A stretch of 64,000 bases of DNA, from assembly GCA_019058445.1 (NCBI GenBank), contig JAHPZA010000006.1:544001-608000 (forward strand). The letters run 5' to 3'. The first letter of the stretch is position 1; the number at the start of each line of letters is the position of its first letter. Positions 2-23,795 of the stretch are shown here, piece after piece. The position numbers and the translations under genes were made by a program. Under the pieces are notes generated by a model. It was not told the DNA's origin and did no database searches. It was given only the letters and a program-made list of their open reading frames with translations. This DNA is from Promethearchaeota archaeon (lineage in GTDB: Archaea > Asgardarchaeota > Lokiarchaeia > Sigyniarchaeales > SOKP01).

Positions 2-3000
2 GATAATGCTCTTGAGGCTTTAAAGAATGCAATAAATATTAATCCAAATTATTCAATTGCTTGGAGAAATATCTGTAATATATATATTATTTTAGAAGAT
101 TATGAGAATTTGATTTATTCTTGTAATAAATATTTAGAAATCAACCCCAATGATGTTGAGATTTGGAATACGCTTGGGAGGGCATTTTATTTTAACTATT
201 ATTACGAAAAAGCAATAGATGCATATAAAAAAGCATTAGAACTCGCACCTATGGATGCTACATTATGGCAAAATCTTGCTTTAGCCTGTGGACACAAAGG
301 TTCGATTGAGGATGCCATAATTGCTTATAAAAAATCACTTGAAATTAACCCAAACGAAGCTGAAAATTGGTATAATCTTGGAGTAGCATACGGAATGATA
401 AACAACCTTGAGGATCAAGTACAGGCATATGCGAAAGCGCTGGAAATCTATCCGGATAATGCCAGTGCATGGTATAATTTAGGTAATACATATGGACGGA
501 TGGGTAAACATGATGAGGCAATAAATGCCTTAGAAAAAGCTATAAAGTTGAACCCTAATCATAATTATGCTTGGGTCAGCTTAGCTATAGCCTATGAAGG
601 AAAAAAAGAATATGATAAAGCAATTGAAGCTTATATAAAATCATTAGAACTTAGTCCAGACGAATATCGTGCGTGGAATGCTCTTGGTAAGCTCTACGAT
701 GAAATTGAAGAATATGATAAAGCAATTGAAGCGTATCAGAAGGCAAAAGATTTAAATGTGAATGATATTGATATTCTGAATAGCTTAGGTGTAAGTTATT
801 ATCAGAAAGATGATAATGATAATGCGATAAAGACATTTTTAAATATTTTAACCTTAGATGGTGAATATGATAGTGCATGGTATAATTTGGGATTGATCTA
901 TGAAGATTTAGAGGAATATGATAAAGCCCTTCAAGCTTATAAGAAAGCTTCTGAAATAGCACCAGATGATATTGATCATTGGAATAAGATTATTGAGATT
1001 ATAATCAAAAAAAATCTTCCAAGTGAAGTAATAGAAAAACTAAAACAAGAGATTGACGCTCAGAACGTTTCAGCAGCAATTGAATCATTAAGTTTATTGT
1101 TCGAACAGGGATATTTGAAAGAAGCACCAATTATCTTAAAAGATTCAGATTATTTTAAAACGAATCCTCAAGAGTATCTCAGATCTTTATTTCTAGATAA
1201 AGAAAAATATACCTTTTTAGTTGGTGCGGGGATCTCAATGAATCCCCCTACTAATCTGTCTTCAGCAATGGGATTTGTGGAAGGATTAATTAAAGTCTGT
1301 ACTCCTGAAAATGAAGCTAAAAACCTCCTTTCTTCAGAACTATTTAAATATGAGATGCTTATTGGCTTTGTAAAAGATATCATGGATAGAGAACTTACTT
1401 TAATGGATTATTTTGATTTAGCTACTGAACCCAATCTTATACATATGTTTTTAGCTCATGCTATTTTACAAGGTCATAACGTTCTTACTACTAATTTTGA
1501 TTATTGTATTGAAATAGCTCTTAAACGAATATTACCTAAGGAAAAACATTCAAATATTATTCCTATAATCTCTAAGAAACAATATTTAGATCATAGTAAT
1601 CCAAGAGAATTAATTGAAGCAGGAAAATATCCTATCTTGAAATTACATGGGTCTAAGAAAAATTTAATTTCTGGAGAGAATACATTTGATTCTCTTGTTA
1701 CTACAATTGCAGATCTGGGGATGGCTAGGGACAAAGGAGAGACTTTTGCAATTGAACCGTTCAAGAGCCCCGCAATAAATGCCACCATTAGAGAACAAAC
1801 ACTCGTGGTTCTTGGTTATTCCGGCAGTGATGATTTTGATATCATTCCTTTATTACAAGAAGTAACTAACCTAAAGAAATTGATATGGATTGATCACACT
1901 AATGAAGATGATATTAAAATTGAAATAATCACTAAAGATAGTCAGATGGGAAAAAAATTGTCGAAAGTAGAGACATTCCTTTCAGATATGAGTACCTATG
2001 TACCCTATGAAATAGTTAAAATTACTAGCCCAACTATATCCTTAACAGAAAATTATCTTTTTCCTCAGATTGTTCCAAATGTTTCATTGGAGGATAATAG
2101 AAAATTGTTGACTAAAAAAGCGCTCTCTTATCCAAGATTTGAAAAGTGGGTTGCTGATTTACCCGTTTTCAAAAAAATAAGTGAACTTGATAAACTATAC
2201 TTCGCATGTTATTTGTATTCGATGAAGAAAGATTTAAAATCAATGTTAAGATCCTCTGAAAAGGGCCTTCAAATAATAGAAAAAAAAGGAAAGAAAAAGA
2301 ATGACAAATTAAAATCAGTTTTTCTCACTTTTCTTGGACACGCCTATAAAGATCAAGGAAATCTTGATTTAGCATTTGAGAAATTTAAGGAAAGCCTCGA
2401 GATTGCTAAAAAGATTGGTGATATATACACAATACAAATACTTCTGAATCATATTGGTCAGGTTTTATTTGAAAAAGAGAAATATGATGAGGCTCTCACT
2501 TATTATGAGGATGCGAAAGATATATCCGATCAATTCAATGATCTTGAAGGAAAATTATGGGTTTTAACAAATTTCGGAATGATATATAATGCAAAGGGAG
2601 AATATGATAAATCACTGGAATCTTTCGAAGAAGCACTTGAGATTAGCGAACAAATTGGAGACCTTGACAAAAAAGGGACTATCTTAAACAATATTGCCTT
2701 TTTATATGAAATTAAAGGTCAATATGAAATTGCTATAGAAAAATTTGAATTAGCACTAAAGATTGATGAGAAACTTAACAATTTTCTAGGAATTTCAAAC
2801 ACTTTACATAACCTTGGAGGGGCTTATTATAAGGTTGGTAATCCTGAAAAAGCAATGGAAAAAATTAAAGCATCTCTTGAGATTCGAGAACAAATAGGAT
2901 ATCAAGAAGGTATAGCAACTTCATGCCAGTGGATTGGAGAATTGTTAGCTCAAAAAGATATTGAAGAAGCTATAAAATATGGGGAGAGAGCGGTAAAGAT

Positions 3001-12535: not shown

Positions 12536-13558
12536 TTATTTATCTACTTCAGATAAATTTATTGGACGATTTTCTTTTAATGATTTTTTTGCCGCTAGTG
12601 CTACTAATACATCTTGTAGTCCGTCCTCCCCGTTAGGAGAAGGATTTTGATTATTTTGTAAACAATTAAAGAAGTATTGCAATTCTGCCGCATAAGACTC
12701 CATATATCTTTCTAAGAAAAAGAATGGAATTTTATCTATGCTTGTATTTTGAGTAGTATATATGCGAACGGTATTAGGAGTATCATTTTCTGCCAGTACG
12801 CACCCCTCAGAACCAAACACCTCAACCCGTTGGTCATAGCCATATACAGCTTGACGTGAATTGTCAATGATACCTATAGCTCCATTTCTAAATTTCAAAA
12901 TTGCAGCAGCTGTATCTATATCCCCTGCTTTACCGATTTCTGGATCTATAAGAACTCCTCCAGTTGCATAGATCTCTTCGACTTCACTTCCTGCTTGGTA
13001 TCTAGCCATATCCCAATCGTGAATGGTCATATCAATAAAAATGCCTCCTGAAACCTTGACATATTCTATCGGTGGAGGGGAAGGGTCCCTTGATGTTATT
13101 TTTATTATTTGAGGTGTGCCAATTCGCCCAGAAACAATGGCATCGTGAATTCGTTTGAAATTATGATCAAATCGCCTATTAAATCCCACCATTAATCTCA
13201 CATCTTCTTCTTTTACAATGGATAAGGTTTCTTTTATCCGTTTTAAATCGGTATCAATAGGTTTTTCACAAAATATCTGTTTTTTTGCTTTAGCAGCTTT
13301 TTGAATAAAATCAGCATGTGTATCAGTCGATGATGCAATTACAACCGCATCTATTTCAGGATCAGTAAAGATTTCGCTTGCATTAGCGGTGAGATATGGA
13401 ATACCTATCTCAGAACCCCATTGCTTTAGTTGATTATCCAGCTTGATATCAGCTACAATTTTTAATTTCACCTCTGGTATATTACGTAAGAGATTTTCAA
13501 TATGAATTTTTCCTATTCTTCCAGCACCAATTACTCCAACAATGAATTTATTACTCAT
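12536..13558 (-). CDS. iolG: myo-inositol 2-dehydrogenase
   Basis: Motifs GAGRIGKIH, FCEKP, GFNRRFD, TSRDP, SGGIFIDMTIHD, YGYDQRVEVFG and FFLERY. Confidence 0.9.
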   Translation of the reverse strand: MSNKFIVGVIGAGRIGKIHIENLLRNIPEVKLKIVADIKLDNQLKQWGSEIGIPYLTANASEIFTDPEIDAVVIASSTDTHADFIQKAAKAKKQIFCEKPIDTDLKRIKETLSIVKEEDVRLMVGFNRRFDHNFKRIHDAIVSGRIGTPQIIKITSRDPSPPPIEYVKVSGGIFIDMTIHDWDMARYQAGSEVEEIYATGGVLIDPEIGKAGDIDTAAAILKFRNGAIGIIDNSRQAVYGYDQRVEVFGSEGCVLAENDTPNTVRIYTTQNTSIDKIPFFFLERYMESYAAELQYFFNCLQNNQNPSPNGEDGLQDVLVALAAKKSLKENRPINLSEVDK

Positions 13559-13761
13559 AATTTTTCCTTATTTTTTTTAATTTCAACCATAACATTAGTT
13601 ATTATATATTTTATAAGTAATTTTTTTATTTTTATGTCAGCAGTATTTTAATATTTGATTCTTTAAGTGAATCTTTTAATAAATTAATTGAAGATTTATA
13701 TTTACATAAAAATAATTTGAATTAACTACAAAAAAATTTAATAATAAAAAGTGTTGATTTT

Positions 13762-15168
13762 ATGAGTGAAAGTGAAAGTGGTCCTCAAACAATTTCTGAT
13801 AAAATGAGAGTTTCCTTCGCCTTCGGGGAAGTAGGAGACAATGTTGCCTTAAATATCTTTCAGTTTTTAGTATTTACGTTCTATTTTTGTGTGGTAAAAC
13901 TTCCAGTATTATGGATTAGCTTAGCTTTTATCCTTTGGAGCGTATGGAATGCAATTAACGATCCTGTAGTAGGATATCTTTCCGATAAAACACAGAGTAA
14001 GAGAGGTCGTAGAGTTCCATGGATGATGGCTGCTATTATTCCATTAGGTATTGTTGTGATACTGTTATTTACACCTCCAATTGTTTTAAACTCCGATTTG
14101 GTAAATTTCATATACTTATTAGTTATTCTTATGGTCTTCGACACAGTCTATACCGCAGTTAATCTAAATTATAACGCACTTTTTTCAGAAATGTTCATTA
14201 ATATGGAAGATAGAAGTAGAACAGGAAAAATCCGTATAAGTTGTGTCATGCTGGCAACTATCTTTGCTTTTGTTTTCCCCACCCTGATTATTGATGATCT
14301 CACAAATAGAAAAGGTAATACAGCTGTTACACTATCCCAGTACCAAATTACTGGAGTTTTAGCGGCAATAGTTATTTTTGTGACGTATTTTTTCTTATTG
14401 AAATGGGGAGTTCGTGAACCTAAGGAGTTTTCAAAAGATGCCGAAACTGCGCTATCTTTTACAAGTACCATAAAAGCCTCTTTCAAAAATAAGTCTTTTT
14501 TATGGTTTTTATTACCAACACTGGGTACGTGGATGGTTATCGGCATAACCCCGGCGTTGGCACCCCTCTTTATGACGTATGCTGTTGGAATAGAGGATTC
14601 AGAGTTAATTGGGTTAGTTCTCCTTATTTTATTTCTCTCTGCTGCTGCTTCAACTCCATTATGGGAAAAAATTAGGGTAAAAAAAGGTGCTCGAATGTCT
14701 GGAATGGTCGGTGTAGTGGTTTGGGCTATTGGAGGTTTATTATTAGCATTTTCAACTAGCTTTGAAATGGCAGCAATAGTCGCAATTATAGATGGGATTG
14801 GATTAGGAGGAGGGCTCTATTTTTATGATCAATGTATAGCAGAGATCATTGACGAAGATGAAATTAACCTCGGTACTCGAAGATCTGGTATATACTATGC
14901 AGTTTTGAATTTCCTTATTAAATTTTCAGCGATAGCTAATTTTATAATCATTGGTATAGTATTTTCGAGCGCCGATTGGCAAACATATACACCAAATCCT
15001 GGAGTGGATACCATATTTGCACTTAGATTTCTGATGGGTATTTTTCCTCTCATTCTTCTTGTAATATCCTTTATAGGATTATATTTCTATCCTATACATG
15101 GAGAACGCTTAATGGAAAATAGAAGGAAACTTACGGAATTACATGAGCAAAAGGGAATTAGTTCATAA
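13762..15168 (+). CDS. GPH-family (MelB-like) MFS sugar:cation symporter
   Basis: WNAINDPVVGYLSDKT..GRRVPW motif; about 12 TM segments; RRSGIYY. Confidence 0.85.
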   Translation: MSESESGPQTISDKMRVSFAFGEVGDNVALNIFQFLVFTFYFCVVKLPVLWISLAFILWSVWNAINDPVVGYLSDKTQSKRGRRVPWMMAAIIPLGIVVILLFTPPIVLNSDLVNFIYLLVILMVFDTVYTAVNLNYNALFSEMFINMEDRSRTGKIRISCVMLATIFAFVFPTLIIDDLTNRKGNTAVTLSQYQITGVLAAIVIFVTYFFLLKWGVREPKEFSKDAETALSFTSTIKASFKNKSFLWFLLPTLGTWMVIGITPALAPLFMTYAVGIEDSELIGLVLLILFLSAAASTPLWEKIRVKKGARMSGMVGVVVWAIGGLLLAFSTSFEMAAIVAIIDGIGLGGGLYFYDQCIAEIIDEDEINLGTRRSGIYYAVLNFLIKFSAIANFIIIGIVFSSADWQTYTPNPGVDTIFALRFLMGIFPLILLVISFIGLYFYPIHGERLMENRRKLTELHEQKGISS

Positions 15169-15277
15169 ATAAATTTATTTCTATTTTTTTTTATCTATTT
15201 TTGTTAAAGATTTATATATATCTTAGGATTATAGAAATGATAACAAGTAATAATATAATTTAAAATAAGTTGATTCT

Positions 15278-16678
15278 ATGGGTGAAATCAATACTCAAAA
15301 AGTTTCTAAGGGAATGAGAGTTGCTTTTGCAAATGGAGATATAGGAGATACTGTTGCTCAATTTACTTTCCAATTTTTAATTTTTACTTTTTATTTTACA
15401 GTTGTAAGGCTACCTGTTTTGCTGGTTACTTTAGCATTTGTGTTTTGGAGTATTTGGAATGCAATTAACGATCCTATGATAGGATATCTCTCCGATCGAA
15501 CAAAAAGCAGATGGGGACGTAGAGTTCCATGGATGATGGGAGCGACTATTCCATTAGCGATTGTAATGATAATGTTATTTACTCCACCAATCGGTTTAAA
15601 CTCAGATTTAGTGAATTTTTTTTATTTATTGATAATCCTTATTATTTACGACACCGTATTTACTTCATTTAATTTAAATTATAACGCACTTTTTTCAGAG
15701 ATGTTTGTTGAAATGGAAGATCGGAGTAAAACAGGAGAAATACGCATAACTCTTACCATGATAGCAACAATACTGGCTTTTGTCCTGCCCACAATCATTA
15801 TAGAAGACTTGACAAATAGATACAATCGTCCTGAAACGTTAACTCAATACCAAATTACTGGAATCGTTGCTGCATGTATAATTCTCATTTCATATTTCAT
15901 TATACTGAAATGGGGCGTTCGCGAACCTAAAGAATTCTCAAAAGATGCTGAGACCGCATTATCTTTTACAAACACTGTGAAAGCTTCTTTTAAAAATAAG
16001 TCATTTCTATGGTTTATGTTTCCAGCACTGGGTACATGGATGGTTATATACATCTTACCAGCATTGGCACCTTTACACATGACATATGCGATTGGAATAG
16101 ACGATTCTTTGTTAATTGGGGTTCTTCTTCTTGTTATGTTCGTTTCTGCTGCGGCTTCTACACCTATTTGGGAAAAGATTAGAGTAAAAAAAGGTGCTCG
16201 CATGAGTGGAATGATAGGTATCGTGGTTTGGGCAATCCCTGTTTTATTTTTTGCTTTTGCCACTAGCTTTGAAATGGCTCTAATTATAGTGATTTTTGAG
16301 GGCATAGGGTTGGGAGGAGGGATCTATTTTTATGATCAGTGTTTAGCAGAGATCATTGATGAAGATGAAATTACGCATGGAACGAGACGCTCCGGTATAT
16401 ATTATGCTGTAATAAATTTCCTTATAAGAATATCGACTATAATTAATTTTATAGTAATAGGGTTAGTATTTTCCAGCACCGATTGGCAAACATATGAGCC
16501 GAATCCCGGAGTTGATACTATTTTTGCCCTTCGACTTTTAATTGGTGTTTATCCTTTCATAGTTCTGATTTTTGCGTTTATAGGAATGTATTTCTACCCG
16601 ATCCATGGAGAACGATTAATGGAAAACAGAAAAAAATTAACTGAATTACATGAACAAAAAAGAAGTAGTCTAAAATAA
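15278..16678 (+). CDS. GPH-family MFS symporter, tandem paralog of 13762-15168
   Basis: Same motifs; long peptides identical to the upstream gene. Confidence 0.85.
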   Translation: MGEINTQKVSKGMRVAFANGDIGDTVAQFTFQFLIFTFYFTVVRLPVLLVTLAFVFWSIWNAINDPMIGYLSDRTKSRWGRRVPWMMGATIPLAIVMIMLFTPPIGLNSDLVNFFYLLIILIIYDTVFTSFNLNYNALFSEMFVEMEDRSKTGEIRITLTMIATILAFVLPTIIIEDLTNRYNRPETLTQYQITGIVAACIILISYFIILKWGVREPKEFSKDAETALSFTNTVKASFKNKSFLWFMFPALGTWMVIYILPALAPLHMTYAIGIDDSLLIGVLLLVMFVSAAASTPIWEKIRVKKGARMSGMIGIVVWAIPVLFFAFATSFEMALIIVIFEGIGLGGGIYFYDQCLAEIIDEDEITHGTRRSGIYYAVINFLIRISTIINFIVIGLVFSSTDWQTYEPNPGVDTIFALRLLIGVYPFIVLIFAFIGMYFYPIHGERLMENRKKLTELHEQKRSSLK

Positions 16679-16762
16679 AATTAGTTTTTAAACCATTTTT
16701 CTTTCTTTTTTTTATAGTTAATTGTTAAACAGACATAATACTAAATAATAGAAAAATCTCCT

Positions 16763-17974
16763 ATGAATGCTCAAGATATACAAACCTACAGATATCGTTG
16801 GATTGTTTTATTTTTGTTCTTTTTCGCAAATGTAGTTTCCAATATGCTTTGGACTACTTATAATCCTATTATTTCCCTTGCAATGGAATTCTATGGCGTA
16901 GATGAATTTTACATAATTTTAATAACACTTATGTTTTTGATCGTATATATTCCTATAACTTTTCTAGCATCATGGCTAGTAGATAGGTATGATTTCAAAA
17001 TAGGAGCAGGGATTGGAGCATTATTCATGGGTGTGTTTGGCTTTCTACGATATATAGCAGATAACAATTATATACTTGCCTTAATATTTAGTATTGGAAT
17101 AGCAATTGCCCAACCCTTCTTATTGAATACTATAACTAAATTATCGGCAAACTGGTTTCCTGATAAAGAACGTACAACTGCAACGGGGATTTCTTTAATA
17201 GCAACTGCAATAGGTGTTGCGTTAGGTATGGTTGTAACCCCAATATTAGTTGTAATGATTAATTTTAGAAGCATGCTGCTTATTTATGGAGTCTTGGCAC
17301 TGGTTTCAGGCATGCTCTTCATTCTCTTCGCTAAAAATAAACCACCTACACCACCTTCGAAAAATTTAACTAATGATAGAGTTTTTGTATTTGAGGGTTT
17401 AAAAATGCTAATTTCAAACCGAAATTTTATGATTTTAGTACTAATCTTTTTTCTAGCAATGGGGATTTTTAATATGATTACCACCTATATAGAGTTGATT
17501 GTCATCCCTCGGGGTTATGACTCGATATTTGCTGGAATTCTAGGAATGTTATTAATACTGGGCGGGATAGTAGGAACAATTATAATGGCGGTTGTATCTG
17601 ATACGTTAAATAAAAGAAAGGTAATTATGATAATCTCTTTATTTATCGCAACAATTTCACTTTTAGTTTTTTCATTTACCTCTGATGGAATCTTACTCTT
17701 ATTATCAGGGTTTTTTTTTGGATTTGGTTTAATGGGCGCGGCTCCATTAGCATTGGAATATGCCGTAGATGCGACTAAACCAGTTCCGGAAGCAAGCTCA
17801 AATGGGATATTAATGATGGTTGGGTCACTAGGCGGAATTTTTTTAATTATTAGCTTAGAAAATGTCAAGATGTCTGGTGATTATTTCCCTGCATTAATTA
17901 TTCAAACAGTTTTACTCGCAGTTTGCTTAATATTCGCTTTTTTTATAGAGGAATTTAAAATCAGAGAAGATTAG
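16763..17974 (+). CDS. MFS transporter (FLVCR/SLC49-like)
   Basis: YRYRWIVL and KLSANWFPDKERTTATG motifs; about 12 TM segments. Confidence 0.8.
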   Translation: MNAQDIQTYRYRWIVLFLFFFANVVSNMLWTTYNPIISLAMEFYGVDEFYIILITLMFLIVYIPITFLASWLVDRYDFKIGAGIGALFMGVFGFLRYIADNNYILALIFSIGIAIAQPFLLNTITKLSANWFPDKERTTATGISLIATAIGVALGMVVTPILVVMINFRSMLLIYGVLALVSGMLFILFAKNKPPTPPSKNLTNDRVFVFEGLKMLISNRNFMILVLIFFLAMGIFNMITTYIELIVIPRGYDSIFAGILGMLLILGGIVGTIIMAVVSDTLNKRKVIMIISLFIATISLLVFSFTSDGILLLLSGFFFGFGLMGAAPLALEYAVDATKPVPEASSNGILMMVGSLGGIFLIISLENVKMSGDYFPALIIQTVLLAVCLIFAFFIEEFKIRED

Positions 17975-18099
17975 AGCAATGTGTCCATAACTTTTCTTTA
18001 AAAGATTTTGAACCTCTCAAATCTATTATCGGTCATAAAAGTTTAATTTAATTATATTCCTATCTTAATTAATTAAATAAATGGAGAAAATCAAAAGAA

Positions 18100-19311
18100 A
18101 TGAAAGCTGTAGAAATATCTGCTGAATGGTCTCCAAAACCGAGTTTTAAACTCGGTTCTAAAGATATTGATGGCAAACTGACTTATTTAGGTTCCCAAGT
18201 ATGGAAAAATCCAGTAGTAACGGTTATTGACGATAAACCGATTCCAAAAATCAAGCCAAATGAAGTTCTATTACAAGTGAAAAGATGCGGAATATGTGGT
18301 TCTGATGTTCATATGGCTCAATCATATGATGATGGATATATCTATTATCCGGGATTAACTGCGTTTCCTGCAACCCTCGGTCATGAGTTTGCTGGTGAAG
18401 TAGTAGAAGTTGGCAGCCAAGCAATAAATAAGAGGACTGGCAAATTATATGAGAAAGGTGAACCTGTAACTGTGGAAGAAATGGTGTGGTGCGGTGAATG
18501 TAAGCCATGTTGTGACGGATTCCCAAACCATTGTGAAAGATTGCAAGAAATAGGATTCTCAATTGATGGAGCTTTTGCTGAATATATTGCTGTCCCTTCT
18601 AAATTATGTTGGAGTTTAAAAAAATTGGAAGGAAAGTATGAAGATATATATAAAATAGGCAGTTTAGTCGAACCAACTTCGGTAGCTTATAATGCTGTTA
18701 TAGAAAGAGGGGGAGGGATTAGACCGGGTGAGAATGTTGTTATTTTAGGAGCTGGTCCAGTCGGTTTGGCTTCTGCTCGTATTTTGAAAACTGCAGGAGC
18801 TGCACTTTGTATTGTTTCTGAGCCTAACGAGCATCGAGCAAAATTTGCTAAAACAATGGGTGCTGATTATACAATTAATCCTCAAAAAGAAAACTTTGTA
18901 GAGAAAGTAAAGGAGTATACCGATAACGATGGAGCTGCTTTATATCTTGAGGCAACAGGACTTCCTCAAGTAGTTACAGAGGATATTCAAAACTGTATTT
19001 GGGAATGTAAATCCGTCAATAGTACTGTTGTTATTGTGGCAAGGGCAGAGCAGAGAATGCCTGTTTGCGGTGAATATTTTCAAGTAAGAAGAGCCCGAAT
19101 TGTTGGTGCACAAGCTTAAATAGATCTCCTATTTAAAATGTATGGCCACAGCGGGCACGGAACCTTTCCAAATGTAATTAGTTGTATGGCTGCTGGAATG
19201 GACATGACACCATTGGTTACAAAAGAGATCTCATTAGATGATGTACCAGAAAATTTAAAATTACTTCAAACGGATAGGGAAAATTGCAAAATTTCTGCCA
19301 AAATTAACTAG
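18100..19311 (+). CDS. iolM: scyllo-inosose 3-dehydrogenase (Zn-dependent MDR); join(18100..19113,19144..19311), 393 aa after removing a 30-nt insert
   Basis: Motifs CGICGSD, LGHE, CGECKPCCDGFPNHC and GAGPVG. The expected IVGAQ-GHSGHGTFP junction is split by an in-frame 30-nt insert containing TAA. The downstream part is intact to TAG at 19309-19311. Confidence 0.85.
19114..19143 (+). other. Putative 30-nt BHB-type mRNA intron in iolM
   Basis: Sequence gcttaaatagatctcctatttaaaatgtat. Contains an 8-bp stem ttaaatag/ctatttaa, central helix gcac/atgt (3 of 4 pairs), bulges AA|G and AT|G, and exon stem tggt/gcca. Cutting at these points gives CAA-GGC (Q-G). Confidence 0.75.
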
Positions 19312-19316
19312 ATTTT

Positions 19317-21485
19317 TTAAAAATCATCTATTTTTTTTTGATTTTCTTTTTCATATTTATGGATTTTATTAAATTCTACTTTTAGTTGAGCATGGTTTTC
19401 TAAAAATTTCTTTAACTCTTTTTTATGATTTACTTTACAATAGTTAGAAAGCTTAATTTTCAAATCTTTTAATTCCCTTAAATTGGATGTAATATTGTTT
19501 TTCGTGACAACAATATTATTTATTACTATGTTATGGAAGATTTTTCTTTCTTCTTCGTTAAAATCCATTATTTCAGCAAATAAGTCATGTCGGATTATTA
19601 TAACCCTTTTAGAATACAAATTTCTTTCTTTTTCCGAAATTTTAGCATTCTTAGGAAAATCTATAACTTTTAAAGGCATATCTGAAATACCAATAATAAA
19701 AAGTAAAGTATAAGGTGTATAATATTTTCTAGCTTTATCTAAGATATTTTCTTCATTCAAATTACTAGTAAAATCGAATAAGATAATTTTATATTTAAAC
19801 AAATCTAATTTCAATTTAACAAGATTATCTCTAATTTTTTGAGTGAAATCTTTATTGACTATTAATAATCCATCAATTCGGTAGTTATAATTAAGAAATA
19901 TTACAATTTCAGAATAATATAGACTTCCCAGTTTCCTGGTCATTAAAAAATTGATACATTTATGAGAAAGAATACCTATATTTCTATATTTAGCAAAATA
20001 TGTATCGTTAAAACGGATGTCATATAAGGTAGGATTGAGGATTTTTTTCGCAATATCAGTTATAGGTCGTCTACTTACCCCATATGCCTTAGCAATTTTA
20101 GTTAGAGATCTTCCATTTTCAAAATCTCTAATCTCATTAACTATTTCGGAAATATCATTTATTAAATCTATTTTTATACCAATATTATCACTTATCACTT
20201 CTATAGAGATTCCAAGCTCCAAATCATTAATGATTTTATCCCTAAGGTCTATATTAGATAATGTGTTATAAAAACCCAAGAAATTAGCAATTTTTTGAAT
20301 TTTTTTTCGTGGTATATTATATTTTCTGGCAATATCCACGGGTACCCATTTATCTATTAACATCCTATATAATATACAATTTATAATTTCATTGTTCCTG
20401 TTGATTGAAACTACTTTTTTTATGGTTTCATCATAGTCAATGTCTTGATTTTTTGTCCAAGTCTTAAAATCACTTATAATCTTAAAACTATGAATAGGGC
20501 GAATTAAATACTTATCAGATTTAATGCTTAAACTGTACTCTTTTAATAAAAATTGTAATTTAGGATTATTAAAATTCTGAAAGCTAATTTCTGTTATTTT
20601 ATCATCTAATATATCCTTAGCAATCTTCATTATCTTTTCTTTAGTAATTATATCTCGTCCTCTCTTAAGGAGCTTTATATATTTCGAGACGGTTGATTTT
20701 GAAATGCCTGCTCTTTTTGCTATTTGTCTGGCACTTTCTTCTGTTTGAATGATTCTATGTACAACAAATTTTACAATCTCAGAATTTCTATTAATTATTT
20801 CACATTTTTTTAGAATCTCATCTTTATTCAATTTAGACGAATAACCATCTAAAATATTTATTAATTTAGATTCATCAATATTTTTTATCCATAGTGCAAA
20901 CTCTCTTGTAATTCTAACCACATTATATGGAGAGTTAGTTCCTGATATATTTCGATAATATTTTAGTAATCTCTGAAATTGGGGATGAGTAAAATTTTTA
21001 AATTCTATTCTTTCAATGTTTTCTGCTACTTTAATTATATAATTGTCGGAGAAAGTATGTTTAAATCGATTATCAAATTTATTCTTAATTACAATTTTAG
21101 CTATTTGATTTAAAGTTGAATCAGTCATATGAAATTTTTCCTTCAATTCTGTTAATGAAACTCCAAAAACGAAATCAATAATATCTAAAACTAGAAGGAA
21201 ATGATCTTCAATTGTTTTAAAATTAACGTTGCGCCTATCAGTTTGTATTCTCGAACATTTATATTTATTGACAAAATCATGAAATTTATTATCAATTTCC
21301 AAGAAAATTTTTTCATATGTTGGATTTTTGAATAATTTCTTATTTCTTCTTATCTTAATGATATCATTTAAAATATGAACGAATTTATAGGTTTCTCTAA
21401 TATTCAACTCTTTTTTTAAATTTATAATAAAATGATTTAATTCCAATATTAGTTTTTTCCGTTCAAATGATATTCTTTTTACCAT
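19317..21485 (-). CDS. Multi-HTH protein with C-terminal PD-(D/E)xK-like nuclease domain and PIP box (putative free-standing endonuclease)
   Basis: HTH-like motifs SLTELKEKFHMT, SARQIAKRAGISKSTVSKY, PVDIARKYNIP, SIEVISDNIGI and SLTKIAKAYGVS. Nuclease-like stretch GILSH..SE..RIDG..LFDFT..DKARKY. Ends in QKKIDDF. Confidence 0.6.
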   Translation of the reverse strand: MVKRISFERKKLILELNHFIINLKKELNIRETYKFVHILNDIIKIRRNKKLFKNPTYEKIFLEIDNKFHDFVNKYKCSRIQTDRRNVNFKTIEDHFLLVLDIIDFVFGVSLTELKEKFHMTDSTLNQIAKIVIKNKFDNRFKHTFSDNYIIKVAENIERIEFKNFTHPQFQRLLKYYRNISGTNSPYNVVRITREFALWIKNIDESKLINILDGYSSKLNKDEILKKCEIINRNSEIVKFVVHRIIQTEESARQIAKRAGISKSTVSKYIKLLKRGRDIITKEKIMKIAKDILDDKITEISFQNFNNPKLQFLLKEYSLSIKSDKYLIRPIHSFKIISDFKTWTKNQDIDYDETIKKVVSINRNNEIINCILYRMLIDKWVPVDIARKYNIPRKKIQKIANFLGFYNTLSNIDLRDKIINDLELGISIEVISDNIGIKIDLINDISEIVNEIRDFENGRSLTKIAKAYGVSRRPITDIAKKILNPTLYDIRFNDTYFAKYRNIGILSHKCINFLMTRKLGSLYYSEIVIFLNYNYRIDGLLIVNKDFTQKIRDNLVKLKLDLFKYKIILFDFTSNLNEENILDKARKYYTPYTLLFIIGISDMPLKVIDFPKNAKISEKERNLYSKRVIIIRHDLFAEIMDFNEEERKIFHNIVINNIVVTKNNITSNLRELKDLKIKLSNYCKVNHKKELKKFLENHAQLKVEFNKIHKYEKENQKKIDDF

Positions 21486-21641
21486 ATTTTTTTATTTTTA
21501 AATAATCAAGAGTATAATTTAATGGTCTAAAAATCATCTAACGTTTTTAATACTAACAGTAACATAATTTATTTATTTTTAAAAGAAAACCAGATATGAA
21601 TTGAATATTAAATTTTGTTTTAATTAGACTAATCAATGAAG

Positions 21642-21685
21642 GGACATATTGGTCATGGAACGCTTCTTATGTGATTTCTTGTATA
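21642..21685 (+). pseudogene. Degenerate relic of the start of iolM exon 2
   Basis: gga cat att ggt cat gga acg ctt ct- tat gtg att tct tgt ata = GHIGHGTLxYVISCI, versus GHSGHGTFPNVISCM in the functional copy. Confidence 0.8.
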
Positions 21686-21694
21686 TTTACTTCA

Positions 21695-22477
21695 TTAATG
21701 ATAATAGTCTATAAATTCTCCTTCGATTTTCTTAAAAGGAATTAGCTTAAATAATTCTTCGAAAAGATAATTATAGGTTTCTAAATCAAAAATTTTAAAC
21801 TCAAATGAGTATTTCTGAAAATCTCCTTCATCTAAATTGTTAAAATAATCAAAATATAATCCAATTTTATAATAATCTGTATAAGTGTGATCGACAGTTA
21901 TTGTTTTAATGTTAAATATATTGACAAAAATATATTTTTCAGTTAAATTAAAATTTTTTTTTGAATACTTAGATTTCAATTCTAAATAATTCTTAAGTTT
22001 CTTTTTCGGATAATTTTGAATCCATCTTTTATTAGTTAATATTTTATCTCTTCTAGTATCTGTTAATTTTTTATTTAAACCATATGTTCTGAATAAAATC
22101 CTTTCATCTCTTTCTAAATGATCGAATATTTCTGTTCTTGCTAAGATCATATTAATGCACTTAAGAACTGCAGGTATTATTTTTTTTTTAAAGGATTTTT
22201 TTGGCACAGCATAACCTTGCTCCCTTCTTCCTTTATAAAATATGTTTAATACACCATTTTCGACTTTAAATATAATCTTAAATAAAAAGTTCTTTGTAAT
22301 TAATTTTAATGTTGTCGATAAATGTTCACGAGGGCCATATTCTTTTATATTATAGCGAGATCTTTTAGTACCATAAATATTTGCTGTAATATTTCTCACA
22401 AATTCATCAAAAACTTCATTGATATCCTTCAGATATTTGTCTAGTCTAACAATTAGTTCTGGCTCTTCTTCCATCAT
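21695..22477 (-). CDS. Hypothetical protein (orphan, AT-rich)
   Basis: 260-aa ORF with no recognisable motif. Confidence 0.65.
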   Translation of the reverse strand: MMEEEPELIVRLDKYLKDINEVFDEFVRNITANIYGTKRSRYNIKEYGPREHLSTTLKLITKNFLFKIIFKVENGVLNIFYKGRREQGYAVPKKSFKKKIIPAVLKCINMILARTEIFDHLERDERILFRTYGLNKKLTDTRRDKILTNKRWIQNYPKKKLKNYLELKSKYSKKNFNLTEKYIFVNIFNIKTITVDHTYTDYYKIGLYFDYFNNLDEGDFQKYSFEFKIFDLETYNYLFEELFKLIPFKKIEGEFIDYYH

Positions 22478-22551
22478 CTTTCGTACAAATTTTTATAAAA
22501 AATGAATTGAATTCAAACTATTTGTTTAAAGTTAAAAAGAAATTAGAATTT

Positions 22552-22686
22552 ATAAATGCGATGGCAGCGGGTATGGATATGACACCCATGGTTACCAAAG
22601 AAATTAGTTTAGATCAAGTTCCTGAAAATCTCAAGCTTTTACAAACAGATCGAGAAAATTGTAAAATTTCTGCGAAAATAGCATAA
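22552..22686 (+). pseudogene. Displaced second copy of the iolM 3' end
   Basis: (INA)MAAGMDMTPMVTKEISLDQVPENLKLLQTDRENCKISAKIA*. 38/41 aa and about 93/126 nt identical to 19186-19311. Confidence 0.9.
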
Positions 22687-22727
22687 AATTTTGTTTAATT
22701 TCTAAATCTCTCTTTTTTTAATTACTC

Positions 22728-23795
22728 TTAAAACCTATAATCTGGTAAAGGTTCTTCAAAAACCCAGTGAAGTTCTTTAGGTAAATCATGATAATCCACT
22801 TGTTTTATGATATCCGTAAAATCTCGGCTGTTAAAGGTATTCCAAAATATTATCGTCTTATTTTTAATGTTTGGTTTGTTTTTATGGACGAAACCTAATA
22901 GCGCTGCAAATGTTTTCCCCGAATAAGTGGGCTCAAGAATAATATCTTCACCATTTTTTAAGATTTTAATAGCTTCAATACATTCTGGTGTTGGAATCCC
23001 ATAATCAATTCCATAATATTCCTCATTATAATGTAAATGCTCAAAAGTAATATCGGATATGGTATTACCAAAACTGTTTATATATTTTATAGTTCTATTG
23101 GATAACCGCCGTATTGCCCTGAAATTACAATCTCTCGAATAGGACACTTGTATAGCATGAATATTGGTCTTTAGTCCAGCAAGTTTTATTCCTAGCGTTA
23201 AACCTGCTGCCGTTCCAGCCGAAGCAGTCGGAACAAAAATATAATCTGGCTCAGGTATTTCTCCATTATCAACTTGATTTTTTAATTCAAACGCGGCATC
23301 TATATATCCTAAAGTCCCTAATGGATTACTGCACCCTACTACCATGTAGTAAAAATCATCAGTTTTAGGAATAGCATTGATTGGATAATAAAACTCGGTT
23401 TTATAATACAAATCTAATAATAAATTATCCCTCACGAAAGTAGAAACTGGTTGATCCATCATAACTGCTACAGGTTTCAATTTTAATTGATCGCAAAATA
23501 TTGCGTTTGCAACACATTGATTTGATCCAATGGTTCCTGCTGTGAGTATTTTTTTATAGTTCTGATTTAGAGCATCTGCATAAATAAATTCCATCTTTCG
23601 AGATTTATTACCTCCATACAGTGGAGAAGTAATATCGTCACATTTTACCCAAAGTGAGTTAATACCCAACTTGTCTTCTAATTTAGTTAATTTTTTGACT
23701 GGTGTCTGTGTAGGTACTAACTTCATCCATGGGATCTTTCCTTCAAGGTCGGGATATTTTTCAAATAATAGCGGTTTGCTTCGAGTTTCAGACAT
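22728..23795 (-). CDS. D-cysteine desulfhydrase / ACC deaminase family PLP enzyme
   Basis: Motifs LWVKCDD..YGGNKSRKMEF, GSNQ, ASAGTAAG and LEPTYSGK. Confidence 0.85.
   Translation of the reverse strand: MSETRSKPLLFEKYPDLEGKIPWMKLVPTQTPVKKLTKLEDKLGINSLWVKCDDITSPLYGGNKSRKMEFIYADALNQNYKKILTAGTIGSNQCVANAIFCDQLKLKPVAVMMDQPVSTFVRDNLLLDLYYKTEFYYPINAIPKTDDFYYMVVGCSNPLGTLGYIDAAFELKNQVDNGEIPEPDYIFVPTASAGTAAGLTLGIKLAGLKTNIHAIQVSYSRDCNFRAIRRLSNRTIKYINSFGNTISDITFEHLHYNEEYYGIDYGIPTPECIEAIKILKNGEDIILEPTYSGKTFAALLGFVHKNKPNIKNKTIIFWNTFNSRDFTDIIKQVDYHDLPKELHWVFEEPLPDYRF

What the first reader, a model, noticed from the sequence alone, without database searches (positions are those of the whole stretch)
19114..19143. 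30-nt BHB-type micro-intron inside a metabolic protein-coding gene (iolM)
Seen: the ORF reads ...RRARIVGAQ|A*IDLLFKMY|GHSGHGTFPNVISCM..., so exactly 30 nt containing a TAA sit between Q and GHSGHG, which are adjacent in IolM homologs as I recall them. The RNA can fold as exon stem tggt/gcca, 3-nt bulge AUG, central helix gcac/augu (3 of 4 pairs), 3-nt bulge AAG, and a perfect 8-bp stem ttaaatag/ctatttaa with a 5-nt loop. Established: archaeal EndA cuts after the 2nd nt of each bulge and RtcB ligates; some EndA types accept relaxed BHB/BHL motifs; archaeal mRNA introns are known mainly from crenarchaeal cbf5. Applying that cut rule gives CAA|GGC and an intact 393-aa protein. Inference: tRNA-type splicing of an Asgard catabolic mRNA, which annotation pipelines would call a pseudogene.
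Basis: partly seen in the sequence, partly recalled or inferred. Interest (0 to 1): 0.95.

Follow-up and report, generated by a model that had tools for sequence, protein, structure and literature searches.

The report
tRNA-type mini-intron in Asgard iolM
A 30-base insert with a stop codon inside the inositol-pathway gene iolM of an Asgard archaeon is almost certainly a true intron, cut out of the mRNA by the tRNA-splicing enzymes; published work shows this for only one archaeal gene, cbf5.

Summary

- An insert sits at the same Gln|Gly boundary in 12 loci, with 11 distinct sequences of 28, 29 or 30 nt.
- All carry stops and two lengths shift the frame, yet exon 2 is always intact, with dN/dS 0.03-0.13.
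- The bulge-helix-bulge (BHB) fold is kept in 90% of cells, against 33-50% in slid controls. Five inner-helix pairs show compensatory changes.
- Close relatives lack the insert exactly.
- Relatives carry two more BHB inserts at other iolM sites that restore the protein exactly.
- Homology alone picks out six 30-nt stop-bearing inserts in this genome. Five have significant BHB geometry.
- EndA and RtcB are encoded.

No RNA read covered the junction. In the window's copy one central-helix pair is a C.A mismatch.

This scan noted the same kind of intron before, in other windows of this genome and in other Asgard genomes. The papers I searched report a BHB intron inside a coding sequence only for crenarchaeal cbf5.

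The parts
18100..19113 (+). iolM exon 1 (338 codons, ends with Gln CAA)
   Evidence: ADH_N and ADH_zinc_N domains, IolM equivalog NF041097 positions 1-~330.
19114..19143 (+). 30-nt BHB micro-intron (19115-19144 gives the same spliced product)
   Evidence: absent exactly in intronless orthologues. Homologous 28-30-nt inserts lie at the same site in 11 other loci, with covariation.
19117..19119 (+). in-frame TAA that ends the unspliced reading frame
   Evidence: All 11 variants carry an in-frame stop (read from the sequences).
19104..19107 (+). outer helix h, 5' strand (UGGU), pairs with 19145-19148
   Evidence: helix 1 is 90.9% paired across 11 sequences.
19108..19111 (+). central 4-bp helix H, exon strand (GCAC), pairs with 19138-19141
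   Evidence: 97.7% of cells paired. The window copy alone has the C.A mismatch.
19112..19114 (+). 5' bulge AA|G; predicted EndA cut after 19113
   Evidence: geometry, and the cut needed to restore Q|G.
19116..19136 (+). inner hairpin h' (8 bp, loop AUCUC)
   Evidence: 5 of 9 inner-helix pairs show compensatory double changes among the homologues.
19138..19141 (+). central helix H, intron strand (AUGU; GUGU or GUGC in all other copies)
19142..19144 (+). 3' bulge AU|G; predicted EndA cut after 19143
   Evidence: columns 43-45 of A1 are invariant.
19145..19148 (+). outer helix h, 3' strand (GCCA)
19144..19311 (+). iolM exon 2 (55 codons plus stop)
   Evidence: intact in all 12 intron-bearing loci; dN/dS 0.03-0.13.

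Best explanation
The 30 nt at 19114-19143 are a bulge-helix-bulge (BHB) intron in the iolM pre-mRNA.

Proposed mechanism:
1. The transcript folds so that the last bases of exon 1 pair with the 3' end of the intron (central 4-bp helix) and with the first bases of exon 2 (outer helix), while the intron's middle forms an 8-bp hairpin.
2. This presents two 3-nt bulges, four base pairs apart, to the archaeal splicing endonuclease EndA.
3. EndA cuts after the second base of each bulge (after 19113 and after 19143).
4. RtcB joins the exons to give ...GCA CAA|GGC CAC..., which encodes an intact 393-aa scyllo-inosose 3-dehydrogenase.
5. Unspliced mRNA gives only a 339-aa product without the C-terminal 55 residues.

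Shown: the insert, its fold, its conservation and covariation, its exact absence in relatives, selection on exon 2, and the enzymes in the genome.

Inferred: that cleavage and ligation take place, and at which bonds.

The intron is old. It is shared across genera of one Asgard family and was lost precisely in some lines. It is one of a class of uniform 30-nt BHB inserts in protein genes of this genome.
For: (1) One gene. The IolM equivalog spans the break in one stretch. The gene lies in an inositol cluster with iolG and sugar transporters.

(2) Same-site inserts. They occur in G003, G005 and G021, and in one more genome record and 8 metagenome contigs. That is 11 distinct sequences of 30, 29 or 28 nt, all with an in-frame stop. 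Seventeen intronless orthologues found in relatives include G002, which is 92% identical and has Q and G adjacent.

(3) Structure.
- 90.3% of cells are paired, against 33-50% with slid partners.
- Five pairs have changes on both sides.
- The covariation score is 0.243 against 0.154 in shuffles, reached by 0 of 500.
- The central helix is 4 of 4 pairs in 10 of 11 copies.
- Its U-to-C change keeps the pair (G-U to G-C) although it would change Tyr to His if translated.

(4) Exon 2.
- It is intact in all 12 loci.
- dN/dS is 0.03-0.13 at dS 0.3 to more than 2.
- Window against G003: 8 synonymous and 0 non-synonymous differences.

(5) Independent inserts in the same gene family.
- G021 has a canonical hBHBh' 30-nt insert in GSD|VHMAQ: 7-bp outer helix, UCGG/CCGA central helix, 8-bp hairpin.
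- L034 has a 29-nt HBh' insert in CGI|CGSD, which is the top-scoring candidate.
- Both restore the conserved protein exactly under the same cut rule.

(6) Own genome.
- Comparison with paralogues alone defines six inserts, all exactly 30 nt with stops: acs (two), an EF-2 paralogue, a FadD-like ligase, a Sir2-like gene, and iolM.
- Each has a homology-consistent boundary with BHB geometry.
- Shuffled introns reach the observed score in 0, 0, 0, 7 and 10 of 5000 trials, and in 257 of 5000 for the FadD-like ligase.

(7) Enzymes. An EndA catalytic subunit (PF01974, 68 bits) and RtcB (574 bits) are encoded. Asgard EndA is reported as (alpha-beta)2 type with the L1 loop that goes with relaxed substrates (PMC5829648).

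(8) The insert is real DNA in two samples.
Against: - There is no RNA evidence. The one RNA run with related words covers only 18776-18920.
- The window's own copy is the weakest of the 11. Its central helix has 3 of 4 pairs (A19138 instead of G), and a C.A mismatch precedes the hairpin. The 5' cut site therefore lies in a 5x2 internal loop rather than a clean 3-nt bulge.
- The BHB fold (-7.5 kcal/mol) is not the MFE fold (-13.6 kcal/mol) for this copy, so splicing may be inefficient here.
- Only one EndA subunit was found.
- The last six intron bases always read ATG or GTG plus one codon in frame with exon 2, which also fits a split-gene reading.
Confidence: 0.88

Rival explanations
1. Split gene. 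The insert is a short spacer between two cistrons. A 339-aa N-terminal protein ends at the TAA. A 57-aa C-terminal piece starts at the ATG/GTG that lies six bases before exon 2, and the two pieces assemble without a covalent link.
For: All 11 variants have ATG or GTG in frame with exon 2 at intron positions 25-27. In the window copy the G-to-A change that weakens the helix makes a better start codon (ATG 19138-19140; ORF 19138..19311). Selection on exon 2 would also be explained.
Against: - The BHB model itself predicts RUGY there, as the complement of exon GCAC.
- Compensatory changes in the hairpin and the fixed 28-30-nt length are not needed for a spacer.
- I see no Shine-Dalgarno-like run in the 30 nt.
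- The U-to-C change in the second 'codon' alters the residue but keeps the base pair.
- The other iolM inserts (G021 GSD|VHMAQ, L034 CGI|CGSD) have no in-frame start before their exon 2 and lie in the conserved CGICGSDVH motif. This model would have to cut the enzyme into three pieces there.
- The same 30-nt build interrupts unrelated genes.
Confidence: 0.05
2. Dead gene. The insert is a scar (mobile-element footprint or recombination junction), it is not removed, and iolM is a pseudogene in this organism.
For: There is an in-frame stop. Beyond the 722-aa gene that follows iolM lies a degraded second copy of the intron and exon 2, which shows past DNA rearrangement at this gene's 3' end. The window copy has a weakened central helix.
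Against: - Exon 2 is intact in all 12 carriers and under strong purifying selection.
- There are no other lesions in 393 codons.
- The insert is shared across genera with structure-preserving changes.
- It occurs once in the genome and I see no target-site duplication.
- The gene lies in an intact inositol cluster.
Confidence: 0.03
3. Translational recoding. The ribosome reads through the TAA or hops over the insert, as in T4 gene 60 bypassing, so no RNA processing is needed.
For: A stop codon lies in a hairpin just after the last sense codon, which superficially resembles the gene 60 take-off site.
Against: - No landing codon matching the take-off codon keeps the frame (inspection).
- Variants of 28 and 29 nt would need different hop lengths, and read-through would shift the frame.
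- Read-through of 30-nt variants would add 10 unconserved residues whose sequence varies freely.
- Covariation extends to the pairing between exon and intron, which bypassing does not require.
Confidence: 0.02
4. Assembly or sequencing artefact.
For: None found.
Against: The insert is in a 34.6-kb Logan contig of the probable source run with no differences, and in a contig from a second sample. It is also in 11 other independent assemblies.
Confidence: 0.01

Closest known systems
BHB intron in the cbf5 pre-mRNA of Crenarchaeota (Watanabe 2002; Yoshinari 2006; Yokobori 2009, PMC2738675)
   Same: It is a short intron inside a protein-coding sequence that folds with its exon flanks into a bulge-helix-bulge motif. 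It is removed (there shown, here inferred) by the tRNA splicing endonuclease and a ligase. Its distribution among relatives is patchy, implying gain and precise loss.
   Different: It lies in a different gene (a catabolic dehydrogenase, not an RNA-modification enzyme) and a different lineage (Asgard, not Crenarchaeota). Related iolM copies carry inserts at three positions. It belongs to a set of uniform 30-nt inserts in several unrelated genes of one genome. No RNA proof exists yet.
Archaeal tRNA introns (canonical 37/38 and non-canonical), substrates of EndA (Marck and Grosjean 2003; PMC5829648)
   Same: The motif is the same: two 3-nt bulges four base pairs apart, a cut after the second bulge base, and helices h and h'. 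It has the size of small tRNA introns. The host lineage is known for heavily interrupted tRNA genes (bioRxiv 10.64898/2026.10.13.758758). ARAGORN recognises only 23 tRNA genes here and calls an intron in 19 of them.
   Different: The exon context is an mRNA with no tRNA body, so recognition must rest on the BHB alone. The window's copy is a relaxed form: the 3' bulge is well formed and the 5' bulge is loosened.
HAC1/XBP1 unconventional mRNA splicing (IRE1 plus tRNA ligase/RtcB) in eukaryotes
   Same: It is spliceosome-independent removal of a short intron from a coding mRNA, with cuts in paired stem-loop elements, ligation by the tRNA ligase, and a changed C-terminus of the protein.
   Different: The nuclease is different (IRE1, not EndA) and so is the motif. 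That system is regulatory; no regulation is shown here.

Membership tests
Archaeal BHB (EndA-type) intron | [quoted passage not shown] | tested here: met
   Met in full in 10 of 11 homologous copies (central helix 4 of 4 pairs). The window copy has 3 of 4 pairs, a relaxed form.
Archaeal BHB (EndA-type) intron | Flanking helices h (exon-exon) and h' (intron hairpin) | tested here: met
   The outer helix is 4 bp and 90.9% paired. The inner hairpin is 8 bp with 5 covarying pairs. One C.A mismatch lies next to bulge 1 in most copies.
Archaeal BHB (EndA-type) intron | Cuts after the second base of each bulge give a functional product | tested here: met
   The rule gives CAA|GGC, which is the Q|G junction of the intronless orthologues, and a 393-aa protein. 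The same rule restores the protein at the G021 and L034 inserts.
Archaeal BHB (EndA-type) intron | Host encodes the splicing endonuclease and an RtcB-type ligase | tested here: met
   EndA catalytic subunit at C9:770313-770918 (PF01974, 68 bits) and RtcB at C1:114713-116020 (574 bits). A second EndA subunit was not found.
Archaeal BHB (EndA-type) intron | Spliced RNA and excised (often circular) intron exist in the cell | not testable with these tools
   No RNA run covers the junction.
cbf5-type archaeal pre-mRNA intron | BHB intron lying inside a protein-coding sequence | tested here: met
cbf5-type archaeal pre-mRNA intron | Host gene cbf5, lineage Crenarchaeota | tested here: not met
   The gene is iolM (NF041097). 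Related records are named Hodarchaeota or Promethearchaeota, that is, Asgard.
IolM (scyllo-inosose 3-dehydrogenase, NF041097) | Whole-protein score over the curated cut-off | tested here: met
   476.3 bits against a cut-off of 450, profile positions 1-386 of 389 in one stretch.
Programmed translational bypass (T4 gene 60 type) | Matched take-off and landing codons flanking the gap | tested here: not met
   No matching in-frame landing codon. The gap length varies from 28 to 30 nt.
Group I / group II self-splicing intron or other known RNA family | Match to a catalytic RNA or Rfam model | tested here: not met
   No Rfam match at E up to 1 in 18000-23000. 30 nt is far too short for a ribozyme core.

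The most novel reading that the evidence does not exclude
The iolM intron is one member of a population of uniform ~30-nt BHB micro-introns that have colonised many ordinary protein-coding genes in this Asgard family. Three positions are occupied in iolM across relatives. In this one genome an EF-2 paralogue, acs (twice), a FadD-like ligase and a Sir2-like gene also carry one. These introns are gained and precisely lost like eukaryotic introns. Each carries a 4-nt stretch complementary to its own insertion site, which points to a specific insertion mechanism. At iolM the intron may be tied to mobile DNA: a relic copy of intron plus exon 2 lies downstream, beyond a multi-HTH gene. mRNA splicing by the tRNA machinery would then be routine in close relatives of eukaryotes.
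Probability: 0.45. Interest if true: 0.9.

Novelty: new variant of a known kind. Interest (0 to 1): 0.8.

Why it matters
In the papers I could search, splicing of a coding sequence by the tRNA endonuclease is documented in archaea only for cbf5 of Crenarchaeota. [quoted passage not shown]

It also appears to be one of a class. That would mean interrupted protein genes and protein-only mRNA splicing are ordinary in this lineage, which bears on how intron-bearing genes arose.

In practice, gene callers truncate such genes. The record for this contig holds a 339-aa ORF, so metabolic reconstructions and pseudogene counts for Asgard MAGs are biased. The 11 natural variants, including the weakened window copy, form a ready substrate series for testing what Asgard EndA accepts.

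Tried and rejected
- **Structure-only genome scans.** I scanned for BHB geometry plus ORF joining in several versions. None showed an excess over slid-partner decoys. In this 31% GC genome chance hairpins and chance open frames swamp the signal, so the scans say nothing about how many introns exist. The hits inside the window looked spurious.
- **Decoy columns.** They were meaningless, because with free boundaries a slid partner finds the same structure.
- **RNA evidence.** One RNA run (X20) held 6% of the words but covers only 18776-18920 at about 89% identity. It says nothing about the junction.
- **Second EndA subunit.** A self-search gave only a spurious hit at C3:126738-126947, where the ORFs have no similarity to EndA. 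The enzyme's architecture in this genome is undetermined.
- **Single-sequence folding.** For the window copy the z-score is -1.44 and the MFE fold is not the BHB fold. This carries no weight on its own.
- **Rfam.** No match.
- **L036.** It has a further break near iolM residues 121-132. My BHB finder did not resolve it into a frame-restoring insert.
- **Tree of iolM.** It is poorly resolved. It shows only that carriers and non-carriers are interspersed. It does not give a number or order of gains and losses.

Full report
**Observation.**
The + strand ORF 18100..19119 ends ...RRARIVGAQA*. The same frame reopens and reads GHSGHGTFPNVISCM... to the stop at 19309-19311. Exactly 30 nt (19114-19143), with TAA at 19117-19119, separate Gln (CAA) from Gly (GGC).

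The read-through product matches the NCBIfam IolM equivalog NF041097 in a single stretch across the break (476 bits, cut-off 450), and Pfam finds ADH_N and ADH_zinc_N. Without the 30 nt the protein has 393 aa, like most of the 120 best database homologues, which have 392-393 aa. The gene call on record for this contig is the truncated 339-aa ORF (P0007).

The gene lies in an inositol cluster: an iolG equivalog at 12536-13558, two GPH symporters and an MFS transporter upstream, and a ThDP enzyme downstream.

**The fold.**
- The outer helix is UGGU/GCCA.
- The central helix is GCAC/AUGU, with 3 of 4 pairs.
- The bulges are AA|G and AU|G.
- There is a perfect 8-bp hairpin with a 5-nt loop.

Two details were left out. 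A C19115.A19137 mismatch lies between bulge 1 and the hairpin. The boundaries can also slide by one base without changing the product.

The geometry is that of archaeal tRNA introns. On the 5' strand the order is outer helix, central helix, bulge, inner helix. On the 3' strand it is inner helix, central helix, bulge, outer helix.

For this single sequence the fold is unremarkable. The MFE structure is different and the z-score is -1.44. The BHB fold scores -7.5 against an MFE of -13.6 kcal/mol.

**Comparative evidence at this site.**
A six-frame search of 40 related genomes found iolM orthologues with an internal stop in three other genomes: G003 and G005 (same genus) and G021 (another genus of the family). 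The other full-length orthologues found are uninterrupted, including G002 at 92% identity.

In all three the extra DNA is 30 nt at the very same codon boundary, and G002 reads ...GAQGHSGHG.... A degenerate pattern built on the exon flanks then found one more genome record and eight metagenome contigs.

Altogether 12 loci carry an insert, with 11 distinct sequences. Nine are 30 nt, one is 29 nt (L027, with L031 identical) and one is 28 nt (L029). Each has an in-frame stop, and the 28- and 29-nt forms also shift the frame. Even so, exon 2 is an intact 55-56-codon ORF in every locus.

Among carriers, exon 2 has dN/dS of 0.03-0.13 at dS from 0.3 to saturation. Window against G003 shows 8 synonymous and 0 non-synonymous differences.

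**Covariation.**
On the alignment of the 11 variants with 14-nt flanks (A1), the BHB structure pairs 90.3% of cells, against 33-50% when partners are slid by 1-3 columns.
- Five of nine inner-helix pairs show changes on both sides, for example A-U to G-C in five sequences and U-A to A-U in three.
- The covariation score is 0.243 against 0.154 in shuffles, reached by 0 of 500.
- The 28-nt form has lost one base from each arm of the hairpin.
- The central helix (exon GCAC with intron GUGU or GUGC) is complete in 10 of 11 copies.
- Only the window copy has A at 19138. That base is the same in a contig from a second sample, so it is not a read error.
- The bulge bases AU|G are invariant.

**More introns in the same gene.**
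G021's iolM carries a second 30-nt insert inside GSD|VHMAQ. It is a textbook hBHBh' motif: a 7-bp outer helix, bulge AU|U, central helix UCGG/CCGA, bulge AU|G and an 8-bp hairpin. The cut rule restores the conserved motif exactly.

L034 has a 29-nt insert in CGI|CGSD. Its central helix is GUGG/CCAU, its hairpin has 9 bp and it has no outer helix (HBh' type). It was the top-scoring structural candidate and is the one that restores the protein.

**The rest of the genome.**
- **Enzymes.** The genome encodes an EndA catalytic subunit and RtcB. Published work assigns Asgard archaea an (alpha-beta)2 EndA with the L1 loop linked to relaxed substrates (PMC5829648).
- **Structure-only scans.** My scans for BHB geometry plus ORF joining were uninformative.
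- **Homology-only approach.** tblastn of all ORFs of at least 150 aa against the genome looked for paralogue alignments interrupted by a stop-bearing insertion.
  - It found six clear cases: acs twice, an EF-2 paralogue, a FadD-like ligase, a Sir2-like gene, and iolM.
  - The flanking conserved peptides fix each insert at exactly 30 nt. Among the few boundaries that homology allows, one has BHB geometry in each case.
  - Shuffled introns reach the observed score in 0, 0, 0, 7 and 10 of 5000 trials, and in 257 of 5000 for the FadD-like ligase.
  - The introns share no sequence. Each carries four bases complementary to its own upstream exon.
- **tRNA genes.** ARAGORN recognises only 23 tRNA genes and calls introns in 19. 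This fits the reported heavy interruption of Asgard tRNA genes (bioRxiv 10.64898/2026.10.13.758758).

**DNA and RNA in public runs.**
The insert is in a 34.6-kb contig of the probable source run. A 151-nt contig from a second sample of the same study is identical over 19129-19279. That second sample also holds an intronless relative, whose contig leaves the window sequence at 19114 and continues directly with exon 2 sequence. The only RNA run with related words does not reach the junction, so there is no direct RNA evidence.

**History.**
On a poorly resolved tree of residues 140-393, carriers and non-carriers are interspersed. G002, without the intron, is nested among carriers, and an intronless sequence is sister to a carrier with 97/88 support. 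Because the inserts are visibly homologous, one old gain with repeated precise losses is the simpler reading. Precise loss is what one expects if a spliced RNA exists, but that step is inference.

**Rivals.**
- **Split gene.** This deserves mention because the last six intron bases always read ATG or GTG plus one codon in frame with exon 2. However, the BHB model predicts RUGY there anyway. The hairpin covaries and the length is fixed. The U-to-C change keeps the pair while altering the would-be codon. The other iolM inserts have no such start.
- **Pseudogene.** This is excluded for the family by selection on exon 2. For this strain's weakened copy, poor splicing remains possible.
- **Read-through or ribosome hopping.** This fails on the 28- and 29-nt forms and on the lack of matched codons.
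- **Assembly artefact.** This is excluded by independent assemblies.

**Comparison with the known, and novelty.**
The closest precedent is the cbf5 pre-mRNA intron of Crenarchaeota (PMC2738675). Four full-text searches found no paper reporting BHB introns in Asgard protein genes. The recent Asgard tRNA-intron preprint does not treat mRNAs.

I file this as a new variant of a known kind: the mechanism is the same, while the lineage, the gene and the uniform 30-nt class spread over several genes are new.

Notes of this scan, which are unchecked AI notes, record the same kind of insert in other windows of this genome and in other Asgard genomes, some with claimed RNA support. I re-tested the EF-2 and FadD cases and, in part, the acs case myself.

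Noticed in passing
window 21620-21690 and 22549-22686 (+), with 19317-21485 (-) and 21695-22477 (-): A degraded second copy of the intron's 3' part plus the first ~15 codons of exon 2 (KGHIGHGT, a frameshift, then VISCI) lies at about 21620-21690. The last 44 codons of exon 2 (90% identical in protein) lie at 22549-22686, inside a 59-aa ORF. A 260-aa orphan gene separates the two relic pieces. A 722-aa multi-HTH protein with no recognisable nuclease or integrase domain lies between iolM and the relic. G003 (L003:3273-3404) and L033 (1554-1715) have a similar exon 2 fragment downstream of iolM; intron carriers G005 and G021 do not within the flanks held. This suggests DNA insertion or duplication events that start at the intron.
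   Followed up: partly
L005 (G021) iolM, insert after codon 68 (GSD|VHMAQ): A second, canonical 30-nt hBHBh' intron in the same gene of a related genus, inside the conserved CGICGSDVH motif.
   Followed up: yes
L034:1737-1765 (+): A 29-nt HBh'-type insert in iolM at CGI|CGSD. It shifts the frame and restores the protein exactly when removed.
   Followed up: yes
L036 (about 2154-2184, minus strand) and L032 (upstream of 6313): In L036, iolM has a further frame break near residues 121-132 that I could not resolve into a BHB insert. In L032, iolM joins residue ~9 directly to residue ~265, an internal deletion, yet keeps its intron and an intact exon 2.
   Followed up: partly
G000:C10:684116-684145 (-); C10:~621763-621899 (-); C6:~862873-862936 (-); C9:~775860-775900 (-): Further 30-nt stop-bearing inserts with BHB geometry in an EF-2 paralogue (switch I region), acs (two; acs also has a frame change between 622220 and 622244), a FadD-like ligase and a Sir2-like gene of the same genome. 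They were defined by homology to paralogues.
   Followed up: partly
G000 whole genome: ARAGORN recognises only 23 tRNA genes in a 4.6-Mb genome that is 93% complete and calls introns in 19 of them, so most tRNA genes are probably too interrupted to be found by standard tools.
   Followed up: no
window 12536-17974: Inositol utilisation context: an iolG equivalog (465 bits), two GPH-family symporters and an MFS transporter lie just upstream of iolM.
   Followed up: partly
G000:C6:220650-222302 (-), C10:295477-296580 (-): Other acyl-CoA ligase paralogues were flagged with internal stops by the family search. In my frame check the stops of the second lie at the very end of the match and none appeared in the first, so these are probably not introns.
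   Followed up: partly
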